Below, in pieces: positions 10,094-59,732 of a stretch of 64,000 nt of DNA (position 1 is its first letter; each line of letters begins with the position of its first letter). The DNA comes from Octopus vulgaris (taxonomy: Eukaryota), in assembly GCA_951406725.2 (NCBI GenBank), contig OX597815.1, forward strand, positions 99,758,001 through 99,822,000, in the 5' to 3' direction. A program made the translations under genes and the position numbers. The notes beneath the pieces are model-generated. The model was not told the DNA's origin. It made no database searches and worked only from the letters and a program-made list of their open reading frames with translations.

Positions 10094-11838
10094 TTGGCAC
10101 TGTCACCTCTATCTGATATGCTAAATAGAACTGGATGCGGATATAAATGTTACGGCAAAACGATCAGCCACCTTTTATATATGGATGACCTAAAACTATA
10201 GGCTGCAAATGACAAACAGCTGGAAACACTATTAAAGACAGTTCATGGATTTACCAAAGAAATAGATATGAAATTTGGATTAGAAAAATGCGCCAAAGTA
10301 ACCATGAAAAGAGGAAAACTAGTTAAGAGTAACAACATCACACTAGATAAAACCAATGAAATAAAAGAATTAGACCAAAGCCAAACTTACAAATACTTAG
10401 GAATCCATGAACTAGATAAGACACAACACACACAAATGAAAGAGAAAATTAAAAAAAAGAATATTATAGACGAGTTAGATCAATACTAAAAACAGAGCTC
10501 AATGCTAAAAACAAGATAATAGGTATCAACACTTTAGCTGTCCCAGTTATAAGTTACAGCTACAATATCCTTAACTGGACACGAAATGAACTGTCCAAAA
10601 TAGATAGGAAAACAAGAAAAATACTGACAGGATCTAGGATGCATCACCCAAAATCTGACATAGAAAGACTATATATACAACGTATAGAAGGTGGTAGAGG
10701 CCTTATACAGCTGGAAAACTACTATAAAATAACTACCATAGGACTGCAAAAATACCTACTTCAGAAGGAAGGAAAACTGATCCAGATAGCAGCAAAACAC
10801 GAGCAAAACAAAAAACTGTTCTCAGTATTTAAGGAAGCTGACAAATACAAACAAAAAATCATACCACCTAATAAACACAAAGAAGAAGAAGAAGATGATG
10901 AAGAAACAACAAAAGCTATAAAACAAATGAAATCCAAACTAAAAATAGAACAGCAACGAGCCATGATAAAACGATGGCAAGAAAAGCCCCTTCATGGTAA
11001 ATACTGCACTAAACTAAACGCAAAAGAAATAGACAAAGAAAAATCCCAGCAATGGTTGAGAAGCTCAGGACTCAAAGCAGAAACAGAGGGATTTTTAATT
11101 GCAGCACAAGACCAAAGCCTCCCCACCAGAAATTACCAAAAACATGTAATGAAAAGAAATATTACAAGTAACTGCAGAATATGTGGAGATGGACAAGAAA
11201 CAATAAATCATATTATCTCTAGCTGCCCAGTCCTGGCTAAGAAGGAATATATTCACAGACATGACAGAGTTGGAACCTACATACATTGGAAGCTATGCCA
11301 ACATTATGGAATAACAACAGAAAAAAGATGGTATAGGCACACACCAGAAAAGGTCACAGAAAACGAGAAAGCAACCATACTCTGGGATATGCCGATACAC
11401 ACAGATAGAGAAATTAAGGCCAACAGACCAGATATAGTTGTCAGAGATCATGAAGAAAAAAATGCTTTCTAATTGATGTATCAATACCGGCAGATGACAA
11501 CGTGTCTCTAAAAGAAATGGAGAAACTCTCAAAATACAAAGACCTGGAAATAGAGATAACTAGAATGTGGAACCTGAAAACAGAAACAATTCCTATCATA
11601 GTAGGTGCATTAGGCATGATAAAAAAATATTCAGACAAATACATAACAAAAACACCAGGACTTACAAACACATATAACATACAGAAAATTGCACTACTAG
11701 GCACTGCACACATCCTACGCAGAACACTTTCCATACAATAACCATCAGAGCATCACAACAAATCACAGCACATACCCAAGGCACACAGAGCTGCGCTCGA
11801 TAGTGAAGTGAAACCACGCTATAAAAATAAAACTACTG
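10094..11838 (+). mobile_element. 5'-truncated Dong/R4-clade non-LTR retrotransposon (RT C-terminus, CCHC knuckle, REL endonuclease, 3' UTR)
   Basis: HLLYMDDLKL (RT), MKFGLEKCA, YKYLGI, RLYIQRIEGGRGL, CRICGDGQETINHIISSC, RHD, RPDIVV, K..KY; inserted in (TAA)n as known for Dong; one stop and two poly-A frameshifts. Confidence 0.93.
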
Positions 11839-13437: not shown

Positions 13438-13535
13438 TACAGAAAGTTGTCTTTTTATACTCCCCGATCCTGGATCTTACAATTATATAATTGTAAGATC
13501 CAGGGATCGAGGAGAATAAAAAAACAATTTTTGTA
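13438..13535. repeat. Loop-less palindrome (~49-bp arms) centred at 13486/13487
   Basis: GATCCTGGATCTTACAATTAT|ATAATTGTAAGATCCAGGGATC with extended imperfect arms. Confidence 0.9.
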
Positions 13536-34415: not shown

Positions 34416-34484
<69 letters not shown>

Positions 34485-34491
<7 letters not shown>

Positions 34492-35114
34492 TGAGGGAGA
34501 TAAATTAATATTAATTTTAAAATCAATTTAAAACCAGTACTCTAGCATACAAAAAATCTGAGAAGTCAGAGAAGTTTCTAATATATGTGTATATTGGCAG
34601 GGCTTGACTGCCAGGAAGTCGGCCGTATGCTAGAAACAGATCATCAACGATCAAACTACAAAGGAATTCTCTAGAGGAAAAATTCAGCGAACACCAGAAC
34701 CAAATTTGGCGGGCAGGACAGATGAAAATTTATATAAAAAACAGAATAAAATGCATACCTCGGTTTCGGCCTTTAACAAAAGAATTACTTACATAATTCA
34801 AATGTCCGTGCTTCTTCAGTGCATTCGTTCATTGTAAATGTAAACTGAAAAAACTAACCCCAGCCTTCCGTGCCAAGACAGACACGTGCTTAGTTTTACC
34901 GATTACATTAGGGATAAAATTTCAAATGTCTTGACTCTGGCGCGCTAAGAAATTCCTGAAGCGAAGAGCTGCAGTAAATAATTCACTGCGGTTAGTGCTT
35001 ACTACTAGAGAACGTATTTATTTCAATATTTAAATAATGCGGGAGATAAATTAATATTAATTTTAAGTTTGATCGTTGATGATCTGTTTCTAGCATACGG
35101 CCGACTTCCTGCCA

Positions 35115-35118
<4 letters not shown>
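34485..35118 (-). mobile_element. Penelope-like pLTR-type mini-element within (TA)n, with direct and inverted sub-repeats
   Basis: Direct repeat 34485-34520/35031-35066; inverted repeat 34612-34657/35066-35111; internal hammerhead; TA runs on both sides. Confidence 0.65.
34750..34825 (-). ncRNA. Type-I hammerhead ribozyme with intact catalytic core
   Basis: AATGCA-CTGAAGA-AG..(GAATTA/TAATTC hairpin)..C-GAAA-CC-GA-GG-TA-TGCATT: perfect 6-bp stem I, CUGANGA, GAAA, GUA cleavage triplet, short stem III. Confidence 0.78.
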
Positions 35119-35145
<27 letters not shown>

Positions 35146-35165
35146 GACATATATGTATATATATA

Positions 35166-35226
<61 letters not shown>

Positions 35227-35273
35227 GAAATATGTTGCAAGAACAAAATATAAAATACACGTGGAAATGTAAC

Positions 35274-35671
35274 GGTAAAATGGGAATAATCAATGAAAAT
35301 GCATATTGCAAATAAAAAAAGGCTATTTATGACAGGTAACGATAAATATATACATTTAGATGGACTGAGGTAGTAATAAGAATCATAAAGTCATTATTAT
35401 CAGATGATTATCAGATGATAATAAAGTAAGAGAACAAAGCGAACCATGGTTTCGGCAAAAATCTATTCATCGCGATGAATAGCTTTTTGCCGAAACCATG
35501 GTTCGCTTTGTTCTCTTACTTTATTATCATCTGATAATCATCTGATAATAATGACTTTTATGATTCTTATTACTACCTCAGTCCATCTAAATGTATATAT
35601 TTGTCGTTACCTGTCATAAATAGCCTTTTTTTATTTGTAATATGCATTTTCGTTGATTTTTCATATTTTAC

Positions 35672-35672
<1 letters not shown>
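35274..35672. repeat. ~400-bp loop-less palindrome centred at 35472/35473, flanked by (TA)n
   Basis: ..CTATTCATCG|CGATGAATAG..; ~199-bp arms with only a handful of mismatches and one indel. Confidence 0.97.
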
Positions 35673-35726
<54 letters not shown>

Positions 35727-35760
35727 GTATGTATGTATGTATATATTATTTATGTATATA

Positions 35761-35792
<32 letters not shown>

Positions 35793-35797
35793 CATAA

Positions 35798-35942
<145 letters not shown>

Positions 35943-35957
35943 AATATATATATACAA

Positions 35958-35999
<42 letters not shown>

Positions 36000-56480: not shown

Positions 56481-56622
56481 ATATAAGAATTTTTTGCGTA
56501 ATGAGATAAAAAAAAAAAACAAGGCTGTGTAGACATTAGAACATTTATAGATAGTTCTATAGATGTTCTAATGTCTACACAGCCTTGGTTTTTTTATCTC
56601 ATTTCGCAAAACGTTCTTATAT
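56481..56622. repeat. Hairpin: ~65-70-bp arms, 6-nt loop (56551-56556)
   Basis: CAAGGCTGTGTAGACATTAGAACATTTATAG atagtt CTATAGATGTTCTAATGTCTACACAGCCTTG. Confidence 0.93.
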
Positions 56623-58222
56623 GTATATATATCCTATGTACTCACGTATATCGCGCTCGCATATATAATGTATGTATAACAAAATAACATAAAACTTATA
56701 AAGCATGTAGCACATAGGAGATAAACCAAACGGTTACTTATAAAAATAAATTATAAAATATATAATATGAAATATAAAATCAGGATTAGTGGGTGTTGTA
56801 TGAAAAAGACAAAAGACAAACTTTACCAGTGAAGTCATGTGCTTTAGTATGTAATCAACGACTAATAAGATGAAGATTTAAAGAAATACTAAGAATCGCA
56901 AAATATAGGAGAATATGACAAATTATTGAACAGGCTTGAAGGTAGCAAATGTACGATAGATGTTATGTAAACACCCTAGCCGTAGTTCTCGCGTTTCATT
57001 AAACAGGTTACTTGGATATTTAAAGATCTCATTTAATGCCGTCCAACAATGGGTATGCCCATATCTTTCACTTAAGTATGGCGATGCCTTTCCAGTTAAT
57101 ATCGAAGTGAATTTTCCTTTAATTTTCCTTTAATTTTCACAATCCTCTGAGAGGAGTCTGTGGATTACTGACGCTAGTAAAGGGTTTGGTTACCTACGGT
57201 ATGTTTGTAAAGATAAGTCTTCATCTCAGTTCCTCTTGCTTTTTCTGCTTCTTTTCCATGTTATTATAGAATGTCTACTATGGTCCCCACTAGACACATA
57301 AATAATTATGATAACGATCTGTGAAATTTGATAGTTTCTAATCTCTGACCCGAAAGTGTTAACGACACCCCATTAAATTCATATTTTCTACAAGCAAGTT
57401 CAATTTCTTGTTGCACACTTAGCAAGCTGGTTAATTCAAATTCTCTACATATTATCTATATGATAATTTGCTTAAAATCACTTGATGGTGGAAGAATATT
57501 TTCATGATGTAGTAGAAGAAATCGAAGTATTCATCAATAAAGAAAATGCTGATAAAACAGATAGGAAATTTTAAACTCCTCTTCTGTTCCTCTTTTACAC
57601 AAACGCCATTCCTGGAACCCCGAGGCTAGATCTTCAACTTACATCAGATAGGGTAGCTATGTGTATATATATATATATATATATTATATACGCGCGTACA
57701 TATGAATGTGTGTGTGTGTGAGTGTATGAGTGCGTGAGTATGTATGTAAGTGTAAGGTTCGATATATATATAATCAAGGTATCTTTGATTATATATATAT
57801 ATTTACAGTCGCTTGGATATTTACCACTTCTGAGTTTCCGGTCGCTATGAGACATATGTAGCCCGTATCCTATCTATTCCATTCCTTAACTCTTGTATTC
57901 TTAGTCGCACACCCAGCAACGCTGTTTGCCTGCCGTGAAATATGAAAAAAAAAAACTTTTTTCAGTTCCTCGTAATTCGATAAAACAAAATATCCACAAG
58001 TTTTCGTCTCAATAAACCACTATTGCCCATGAAAATTGTTTTTTTTTCATTTACTACGGTTTAATTTACTAACTTTCTTCCCAAACCTCGATCCTTGGTC
58101 CTTGGATGTTATATATATATATATACTTAATCATATCAAAGGGAAATGGAATTAATTAAAATGTTCATTTCCAGTGGCCTAACGTGTAGCAATTTAGTGC
58201 AAAGACTATGTATTAGTCATAA

Positions 58223-58466: not shown

Positions 58467-59732
58467 TTGGGTTGGCAACTAAGTTCCCGCCGTTTTTTGA
58501 AATTTTGGAATTTATTGCGTTTTTAAATTTTGGAATCTATTTTTTTAGAGAATTCTGTTTTTGAATCATTTTGGAATCTATTTTGGTTGGGGGTTTTTTT
58601 TCTAGTTAATTTTAGTTAATTTTTTATATTTTCACGCATTTTCGGTACCTCCTTCTTTTTACTTTCAATCAAGGCTCTAAGGCCGCAAAAGCTGCTCACA
58701 ATATTTGTGCTATGTATGGAGAGGGTGCCATAGCAGAAAAAAACGCTTGTGATTGGTATGTCAAGATCAAAACTGGAAATTTTGACCTGAAAAACGCATA
58801 TCGTTCTGGCCGTCCAGTTGAGTTCGATGAAGAGCGATTAAAACAAATTTTGCACGAAAATTCTCGTCAAACGACAAGGGAACTGGCAGAGAAAATGGAA
58901 TGCTACCACACTGCTATAGAGAAGCATCCTCACTCGATGGGAAAGATTCAGAAGTATGGAGAATGGGTTCCGCATGCTTTAAGTGACAACAACAAAAGCC
59001 AACGAGTCACAAACCCCGCTGGTTTGCATACACGTTACCGCTCAACTCATGGACACAAGCAACGATTTTTTTACCGAATCGTTACTGGTGACGGAAAATG
59101 GTGCATGTACATCAATATGAAGCAGTGTAAGGAATGGCTAAGCCCCAATAAACAAGCAACTTTGCCCGTGAAACAAGATCTTCATCCGCGTAAAACGACT
59201 TTGTGCGTATAGTAGGACTAGAAAGAGATTATCCATTACGAATTGCTTGAACGGAACCAAACGGTCAACGCAGAACTCTATGTTTAACAGATGGAACGAC
59301 TTCACACGGCTATTCAAGAGTAAGGATCTAATCGGCAGCATGGGGTTCTTCTGCTGCACAACACCGCCTGACCTCAAATCGCCAATATGACAAAGGAAGC
59401 CATTCATAAGCATGGGTGGGAAGTGCTACTACACCCGCCGTACTCTCCTTGTTTGGCACCAACGGATTTCCACCTCTTTCGATCTCGTTCAAATGCTAAG
59501 TGACGAGTTTCGTTCAATACTGATGCAGAATTAAGCGCTTGGTTGGATCAATTTTTCGAGTCGAAATCGGATGATTGATAGCAACGAGGTATTGAAAATC
59601 TTGTTGAACGTTGGACAGATGTGGTTAGCAACAAGGGTGAGAGCATTATTGATTAATTAGTTGTTATTTTCTATTAAACTTTTAAAAAAATTTAAATTTA
59701 GAAAAGCGGTGGAAACTTAGTTGCCAAACCAA
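58467..59732 (+). mobile_element. Full-length (1266 bp) mariner, mellifera-like TIRs, inactivated transposase
   Basis: TIRs TTGGGTTGGCAACTAAGTT / AACTTAGTTGCCAAACCAA with TA on both sides; RSGRP, WVPHAL, RIVTGDGKW, HPPYSPCLAPTD motifs; several stops. Confidence 0.95.

What the first reader, a model, noticed from the sequence alone, without database searches (positions are those of the whole stretch)
35274..35672. 400-bp loop-less palindrome whose axis cuts through a hammerhead core
Seen: the arms are ~199 bp with no spacer. Reading outward from the axis gives GATGA-ATAGCTTTTTGCC-GAAA-CCATGG-TT, i.e. a hammerhead lacking the leading CT of CUGAUGA and the 5' strand of stem I, with a palindromic stem III (AACCATGGTT). 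The arms differ at several positions, which argues against an assembly artefact. Inference: cDNA folded back and self-primed where RT stopped at the ribozyme end, leaving a molecular fossil of second-strand priming. Long perfect palindromes are normally unstable.
Basis: partly seen in the sequence, partly recalled or inferred. Interest (0 to 1): 0.75.

Follow-up and report, generated by a model that had tools for sequence, protein, structure and literature searches.

The report
Head-to-head Penelope ends with variant hammerhead
This 400-base mirror-image sequence is two truncated end pieces of a common Penelope-type jumping gene joined head to head in a TA repeat, a known layout that here likely arose from two separate reverse-transcription starts rather than a fold-back, and each half carries a hammerhead-shaped RNA motif whose usual C-G core pair is predicted to be replaced by A-U.

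Summary
The spacerless palindrome is confirmed (axis 35472/35473, 8 differences in 200 columns), and the left arm runs 50 bp further. Both arms are the pLTR of an RT + GIY-YIG Penelope-like element (at least 544 copies) inserted in (TA)n. Inverted insertions of this kind are published, and the scan found them before elsewhere in this genome. Other copies have no CTGATGA. Stem I is CAAAGCG:CGCTTTG, and the seven core bases are AUGAAUA, a predicted A3-U8 variant with one extra base beside G12. The axis cuts stem I, 31 nt from the predicted cleavage site, so a ribozyme end does not explain it. It does lie in the family's 5'-end hot spot. Thirteen other family palindromes have axes within about 20 nt, none identical. 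Ten of 13 inverted pairs in an unbiased sample join one 'short' and one 'tail' 3' end, and five are not nested, which favours two primings over fold-back. Shared rare alleles suggest later arm-to-arm homogenisation, but replication was weak. Self-cleavage is untested, and no long reads were available.

The parts
35222..35472 (-). Left arm: 5'-truncated pLTR copy of a Penelope-like element, q1-q251 (q = position counted from the axis), ending at the family's 'tail' 3' end
   Evidence: 44 of 70 sampled copies end at this site
35222..35272 (-). About 50-bp 'tail', present on the left arm only; in tandem copies it lies just upstream of the ORF start
   Evidence: L198, L202, L211 run from the tail to an ATG 38 nt after the anchor
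35473..35673 (+). Right arm: 5'-truncated pLTR copy q1-q201, ending at the family's 'short' 3' end
   Evidence: 19 of 70 sampled copies end at this site
35472..35473 (.). Axis: 2-base GC overlap that belongs to the natural sequence of both arms (microhomology join); it lies inside the 5' strand of hammerhead stem I
   Evidence: natural upstream sequence compared with the window
35475..35481 (+). Predicted hammerhead core positions 3-9, AUGAAUA (A3-U8 in place of C3-G8); mirror copy at 35464-35470 on the minus strand
   Evidence: positions 3-8 invariant in 41 of 41 sampled arms
35482..35492 (+). Predicted 2-bp stem II with U5 loop, one extra C, then G12; the left-arm copy has C-to-A at 35462, which breaks one stem II pair
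35493..35510 (+). A13-A15.1, palindromic stem III (ACCATGGT), H17 at 35503 (predicted cut after it) and 3' strand of stem I (35504-35510); only 3 bp of stem I remain possible at this locus
35113..35221 (.). Interrupted (TA)n tract, left target flank
35674..35996 (.). Interrupted (TA)n tract, right target flank

Best explanation
The palindrome is two 5'-truncated pLTR copies of a Penelope-like retrotransposon joined head to head inside a (TA)n tract, likely made in one insertion by two target-primed reverse transcriptions, one from each side of the cut. One cDNA likely started at the family's 'tail' site (q252) and the other at its 'short' site (about q203). Both likely ended in the family's 5'-end hot spot and were likely joined through the 2-base GC overlap, which leaves no spacer. 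The arms were probably partly homogenised afterwards near the axis. Each arm carries a predicted minimal type I hammerhead variant (A3-U8 core, extra base beside G12, palindromic stem III). The local copies are predicted inactive because stem I is cut to 3 bp and a read-through RNA would fold into the long hairpin. Shown: element identity, the two end classes, the hot spot, junction geometry, motif anatomy. Inferred: dual priming, microhomology join, conversion, any ribozyme activity.
For: Longer copies continue upstream into an ORF with RT and C-terminal GIY-YIG (Pfam GIY-YIG E 1.4e-05, above cut-off; RVT_1 E 7.8e-05, below cut-off), and 3 of 20 loci show pLTR-tail-ORF order. In 70 copies chosen only by a 3' 29-mer, 19 end at the short site and 44 at the tail site; short ends also occur with no inverted partner, so the site does not depend on a second arm. 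Thirteen of the 70 have an adjacent inverted partner; 10 of 13 are short+tail, none tail+tail or short+short. Among 11 further palindromes, 7 are short+tail and 1 tail+tail. In 5 of the 10 pairs the short-ended arm reaches further 5' than the tail arm, so neither arm can be a copy of the other. L231's arms differ at four common family polymorphisms. The 5'-end rate is 0.031 per nt in q-40..+2 against 0.0025 in q3..170. In vitro, a Penelope protein cuts and extends both strands and starts at two sites that bound the tail (PMC11167929, parts 1-2 read). Hammerhead register: stem I covaries, GCG/CGCT 40 and ACG/CGTT 17 of 81 rows with family upstream sequence; H17 is U, C or A in 41 of 41 arms; 45 of 50 rows keep a G at or beside position 12; 274 pattern matches against 0 in the control.
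Against: At this locus the right arm is nested in the left and both share three rare alleles (q61 G, q72 G, q92 T), the double-G haplotype occurring only in these two arms genome-wide; this is what a fold-back would also give. Non-nested pairs could come from later asymmetric central deletions. The homogenisation gradient was strong in the first set (7/678 near, 45/689 far) but absent in the second (29/623 against 37/726, p 0.80; 14/540 against 30/640, p 0.065, without the tail+tail locus L232). Stem I covariation is one pair and probably one event (17 of 500 shuffles reach the paired share), on rows pre-selected by the motif. Rfam gave no hammerhead match for the window or for an intact copy. 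One of three copies folded (L129) prefers another minimum-energy structure.
Confidence: 0.68

Rival explanations
1. Fold-back self-priming: one cDNA started at the tail site, stopped in the 5' hot spot, snapped back and primed its own second strand, which was then resolved at the tail boundary; the loop was lost later or during repair.
For: Arms nested here and sharing rare alleles. Several pairs have both 5' ends within about 10 nt of each other, also outside the hot spot (L104, L126, L154, L170, L172). Some second arms end at neither start site (q12, q60, q128, q194). Self-priming is proposed in PMC3846280 (passages read), and endonuclease resolution of the tail in PMC8557442 (passages read).
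Against: Only a 2-base overlap at the axis, and a cDNA ending there has no paired 3' end at the axis; the hairpin it can form is stem I, which would leave the hammerhead as a loop. Five of 10 short+tail pairs are not nested, some pairs have arms from different subfamilies (L231, L232), and short ends occur without partners. The arms differ at q11, a site polymorphic in the family (16 A of 111).
Confidence: 0.2
2. Secondary palindrome: the insertion first had a spacer or longer arms, and central deletion plus arm-to-arm repair later produced the loopless axis, so the axis records repair and not reverse transcription.
For: Arms identical from q12 to q130 except one homopolymer indel, with three shared rare alleles there; L235 shares nine rare alleles in its near half; near/far gradient.
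Against: The axis lies in the hot spot where solo copies also end; the q11 mismatch survives close to the axis; the gradient replicated weakly.
Confidence: 0.09
3. Assembly or sequencing artefact (fold-back chimera).
For: No independent read evidence across the axis was obtained.
Against: Eight arm differences, a tail on one arm only, different flanks, and both outer ends on recurrent family end sites; the same layout with varied axes at 13 other loci.
Confidence: 0.03

Closest known systems
Inverted 5'-truncated pLTR insertions of endonuclease-bearing Penelope-like elements (PMC8557442 Fig. 2 legend and passages; PMC3846280 passages)
   Same: Head-to-head inverted copy, tail at one end only, palindrome at the inverted junction, (TA)n target, pLTR next to the ORF start
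   Different: No internal sequence at all, zero spacer over 200 bp, tail about 50 bp rather than 30-40; family data favour two primings where PMC3846280 proposes self-priming
Neptune/Nematis-type PLEs (motifs as defined in PMC8557442 passages)
   Same: C-terminal GIY-YIG, CX4CxxC linker, CCHH-like residues, DKG motif, microsatellite targeting
   Different: No phylogeny was run, so Neptune and Nematis are not separated
Anolis Poseidon element PAc (PMC11167929, parts 1-2 of 4 read)
   Same: Two 3' end classes bounding the tail, near the ORF start; hammerhead in the pLTR
   Different: Different clade; canonical C3-G8 core in PAc; here both end sites lie upstream of the first ATG; dual priming into one inverted product was not shown there
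Minimal type I hammerheads of metazoan PLEs (PMC4209133, parts 1-2 of 4 read) and natural core variants (PMC3088659, passages and section 3 part 2 read)
   Same: Palindromic stem III suited to dimers, G10.1-C11.1, NUH site, a Watson-Crick 3:8 pair; U3-A8 and a U13a insertion are described
   Different: A3-U8 rather than U3-A8; no extra base between 9 and 10.1 but one beside G12; stem II only 2-3 bp; activity untested

Membership tests
EN+ Penelope-like element | ORF with RT and GIY-YIG endonuclease | tested here: met
   GIY-YIG above cut-off, RVT_1 E 7.8e-05 below cut-off, in one 510-aa frame of L034; similar in L032
EN+ Penelope-like element | pLTR at both ends of the ORF in partial tandems | tested here: met
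   3' pLTR after GIY-YIG; 5' pLTR plus tail before the ORF in 3 of 20 loci
EN+ Penelope-like element | Optional tail and inverted 5'-truncated copy | tested here: met
EN+ Penelope-like element | RT groups with PLE RTs in a phylogeny | not tested
   No reference PLE set was gathered; DKG motif seen
Neptune/Nematis clades | CX2-5CxxC linker before a C-terminal GIY-YIG with CCHH | tested here: met
   Read by eye in translations of L031, L032, L034 against PMC8557442 passages
Neptune/Nematis clades | Clade placement by tree | not tested
   No tree built
Hammerhead ribozyme, type I minimal | Three helices around the core | tested here: met
   95.8% of 309 cells paired, one pair with two-sided change; weak against shuffles; at this locus stem I is cut to 3 bp
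Hammerhead ribozyme, type I minimal | Canonical core C3 U4 G5 A6 N7 G8 A9 | tested here: not met
   Family has A3 and U8; U4, G5, A6 41 of 41 and A9 40 of 41; CTGATGA form in 2 family loci only, both at 5' junctions
Hammerhead ribozyme, type I minimal | Watson-Crick pair between positions 3 and 8 | tested here: inconclusive
   A-U is complementary in 41 of 41 arms but does not covary within the family
Hammerhead ribozyme, type I minimal | G12 A13 A14 A15.1 directly after stem II | tested here: not met
   One extra base before or after the G; a G is kept in 45 of 50 rows
Hammerhead ribozyme, type I minimal | U16.1 and H17 (not G) | tested here: met
   U in 41 of 41; H17 U 26, C 13, A 2
Hammerhead ribozyme, type I minimal | Rfam hammerhead model match | tested here: not met
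Hammerhead ribozyme, type I minimal | Self-cleavage | not testable with these tools
   2 of 70 5' ends map at q32, both ambiguous on inspection
MITE / foldback DNA transposon | Palindromic unit with fixed termini that moves as such | tested here: not met
   57 of 70 copies have no adjacent inverted partner; axes vary; the arm continues into an RT ORF

The most novel reading that the evidence does not exclude
This Penelope family spread to well over a thousand copies with a working hammerhead of a core type not found in the papers searched (A3-U8 plus an extra base beside G12), and its inverted insertions are direct records of a dimeric enzyme priming from both sides of one cut at two fixed RNA sites, sometimes on RNAs from different parents, followed by hairpin-driven homogenisation of the arms.
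Probability: 0.25. Interest if true: 0.6.

Novelty: new variant of a known kind. Interest (0 to 1): 0.36.

Why it matters
The locus itself is ordinary retrotransposon debris. Its family is useful in two ways. First, how Penelope elements form inverted insertions is unresolved (PMC8557442 names it as open), and the end rule, non-nested pairs and mixed-parent arms give testable predictions that separate dual priming from self-priming. Second, the A3-U8 motif with an extra base beside G12 would be missed by standard CUGANGA/GAAA descriptors and by Rfam, so some elements scored as lacking hammerheads may carry one. It is a cheap in vitro test.

Tried and rejected
Independent read support: contigs of four runs (X1, X2, X3, X5) were laid on the junction twice. 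No listed piece bridged the axis (17 of 22 pieces shown; one crossed by 5 nt and then left the stretch). These are short unitigs in a high-copy repeat, so this says nothing either way; their loose ends did show the family's natural upstream sequence. No RNA holder was listed. An intact CTGATGA subfamily: not found (1 match; 16 against 22 control, 3 of them family; 5 against 3 control). My own first reading, a 3-nt core deletion, was dropped after one search showed exactly seven bases between stems I and II. A splice acceptor at the axis: rejected because the AG is absent in the commoner subfamily (q0 is G in 8 of 41 arms). Cleavage-site 5' ends: 2 of 70 at q32, one an internal deletion and one a diverged copy. 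Linkage of the q11 allele to other markers: inconclusive in 17 copies. The near-axis homogenisation gradient replicated weakly or not at all (one search included loop II indels and an alignment offset in L225). Papers not held: Lunse et al. 2017 and Przybilski and Hammann 2007, both likely to bear on A3-U8; figures and supplements of PMC4209133 and PMC3088659 were not seen. Literature searches for A3-U8 and Penelope twin priming found nothing relevant.

Full report
Observation. Positions are given as q, counted outward from the axis (q1 = 35473 on the right arm, 35472 on the left; q0 and below are natural upstream sequence). The palindrome has no spacer and 8 differences in 200 aligned columns. 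The left arm continues to 35222 and the right arm stops at 35673; both abut (TA)n. Rfam finds nothing in the window.

What the arms are. One arm draws 1,515 first-look candidates in G000 (40 scored), and a 29-mer from its 3' part has 544 exact matches against 0 in the control. [quoted passage not shown] By the definitions in PMC8557442 (passages) this is a Neptune/Nematis-type Penelope-like element; no tree was built. In 3 of 20 loci the same sequence, tail included, stands directly before the ORF start, so it is the pLTR.

None of 28 other copies has CT before GATGA. Genome-wide there is 1 CTGATGA-type match against 65 GCGATGA-type, two of which are this locus. A looser pattern gave 16 matches against 22 in the control; three are family arms at two loci, both at 5' junctions. 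Short-read contigs show the same natural upstream sequence as loose ends. The prediction of 'stem I + CTGATGA' fails.

The motif re-registered. The natural upstream CAAAGCG (q-4..q2) is complementary to CGCTTTG (q32..38), and this stem covaries between subfamilies: GCG/CGCT in 40 and ACG/CGTT in 17 of 81 rows with family upstream sequence. Exactly seven bases, AUGAAUA, lie between it and a GC-closed stem II. They match core positions 3-9 if C3-G8 is replaced by A3-U8. The chance of such a heptamer at a fixed place is about 0.002, though I chose the register after seeing the data. In 41 arms aligned without requiring the motif, positions 3-8 are invariant and A9 is kept in 40; U16.1 is invariant and H17 is U, C or A. 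Loop II and loop III vary between subfamilies while closures persist. One extra base lies before or after G12, with a G kept in 45 of 50 rows. The pattern has 274 matches against 0. Against: pair statistics are weak (one two-sided pair; 17 of 500 shuffles; 32 pre-selected rows), Rfam sees no hammerhead in an intact copy, and one of three copies folds otherwise. Natural U3-A8 and a U13a insertion are described (PMC4209133 parts 1-2; PMC3088659 passages and section 3 part 2; C3-G8 pairing in PMC3884650 passages). I found no A3-U8 report, but two relevant papers were not held. An earlier scan note reports A3-U8 in another genome's Penelope family (e1-9564841; not checked). The axis therefore cuts stem I, each arm keeps the whole core, and the predicted cut lies after q31. 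A cleaved RNA would give a cDNA ending at q32, not at the axis.

Why the axis is here. I took all C1 and C2 loci of the 29-mer except this one, 70 loci of 544 matches. Thirty-two have 5' ends in q-40..+2, a rate of 0.031 per nt against 0.0025 in q3..170 and 0.0019 in q-300..-41. The cause may be transcript starts in the pLTR or the hairpin at about q-37..-10; this is inference, and TA microhomology shifts some ends. A genome search for head-to-head cores with 0-24 nt between them gave 31 loci against 12 in the control. Of 24 examined, 14 are family members, this one included. Axes scatter over about 20 nt. L225 and L148 are also spacerless, 1-2 nt away; L238 has one extra base; none has this exact junction. 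L170 is spacerless at q-20. This locus, L225 and L170 each have a 2-base self-complementary overlap of natural sequence at the axis.

How it formed. The 70 copies have two 3' end classes: 19 at about q203 and 44 at q252. Thirteen have an adjacent inverted partner; 10 pair a short with a tail end, three have one arm ending elsewhere, none has two like ends. Among 11 new palindromes, 7 are short+tail, 1 tail+tail and 3 other. In 5 of the 10 unbiased short+tail pairs the short arm reaches further 5' than the tail arm, so neither can be copied from the other unless later deletion reshaped them. L231's arms differ at four common polymorphisms. A cDNA ending at the axis has no paired 3' end there; the hairpin it can form further on is stem I, which would leave the motif as a loop. 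PAc in vitro cuts and extends both strands and starts at two sites bounding the tail (PMC11167929 parts 1-2). I put dual priming at 0.68. Fold-back stays at 0.2: this locus is nested, PMC3846280 (passages) reads such palindromes as self-priming, and some second arms end at neither start site.

Shared alleles. The arms share three rare alleles (random pairs share three or more in 0.14% of 5,000 draws), and the double-G haplotype occurs only here. They are identical from q12 to q130 but for one homopolymer indel. In ten tight pairs, differences were 7/678 in the half near the axis and 45/689 in the far half; four wide pairs gave 13/250 and 12/249, random pairs 6.3 and 6.4. Nine further palindromes gave 29/623 and 37/726 (p 0.80), or 14/540 and 30/640 (p 0.065) without L232. 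Arm-to-arm homogenisation is thus plausible for some loci (this one, L235) but not established as a rule. A shared source copy explains shared alleles as well.

Reality of the structure. Arm differences, the one-sided tail and recurrence at other loci argue against an artefact. Direct read support was not obtained.

Novelty. PMC6765202 (passages) and bioRxiv 10.64898/2026.07.22.740005 (passages) added background only. What is new here is modest: a predicted A3-U8 hammerhead variant across a large family, and counts that bear on how inverted insertions form. Interest 0.36.

Noticed in passing
window 34481-35114: Adjacent element of another family between (TA)n tracts: a 40-bp direct repeat (about 34481-34520 and 35027-35066) followed by a 49-bp inverted copy (34609-34657 and 35066-35114); resembles a Penelope-type direct/inverted layout. 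A similar end sequence flanks L069.
   Followed up: no
window about 56485-56625: Second palindrome with arms of roughly 65-70 bp around a few unpaired bases, flanked by TA-rich sequence.
   Followed up: no
window about 13455-13515: Short spacerless palindrome with an 18-bp perfect core and imperfect extension.
   Followed up: no
L038 (G000:C5:37569606-37569656): Palindrome of a different repeat with the same stem III-like word and its axis inside a hairpin with T/A runs; a candidate for true fold-back at a stem II.
   Followed up: partly
L148 (G000:C2:106896683-106896704): Spacerless family palindrome whose junction happens to spell the canonical CTGATGA on both strands; one arm has an internal deletion.
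   Followed up: partly
L235 (G000:C15:35689318): Family palindrome whose arms share nine rare alleles and no difference in the half near the axis; the clearest case for arm-to-arm conversion.
   Followed up: partly
L205, L206, L208, L212-L215: A different repeat shares about 290 bp with the 5' part of this element's ORF but has its own upstream and downstream sequence; possible chimera or non-autonomous derivative.
   Followed up: no
L032 (G000:C17:939000-948999), minus-strand frame of 563 aa: A second RT-like ORF on the opposite strand close to the family copy; looks like another Penelope-type element by eye, not scanned.
   Followed up: no
window 10453-11472 (+) and 58616-59212 (+): Fragments of a non-LTR retrotransposon (zf-RVT, E 9.2e-06) and of a mariner transposase (HTH_48, E 8.7e-15).
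   Followed up: partly
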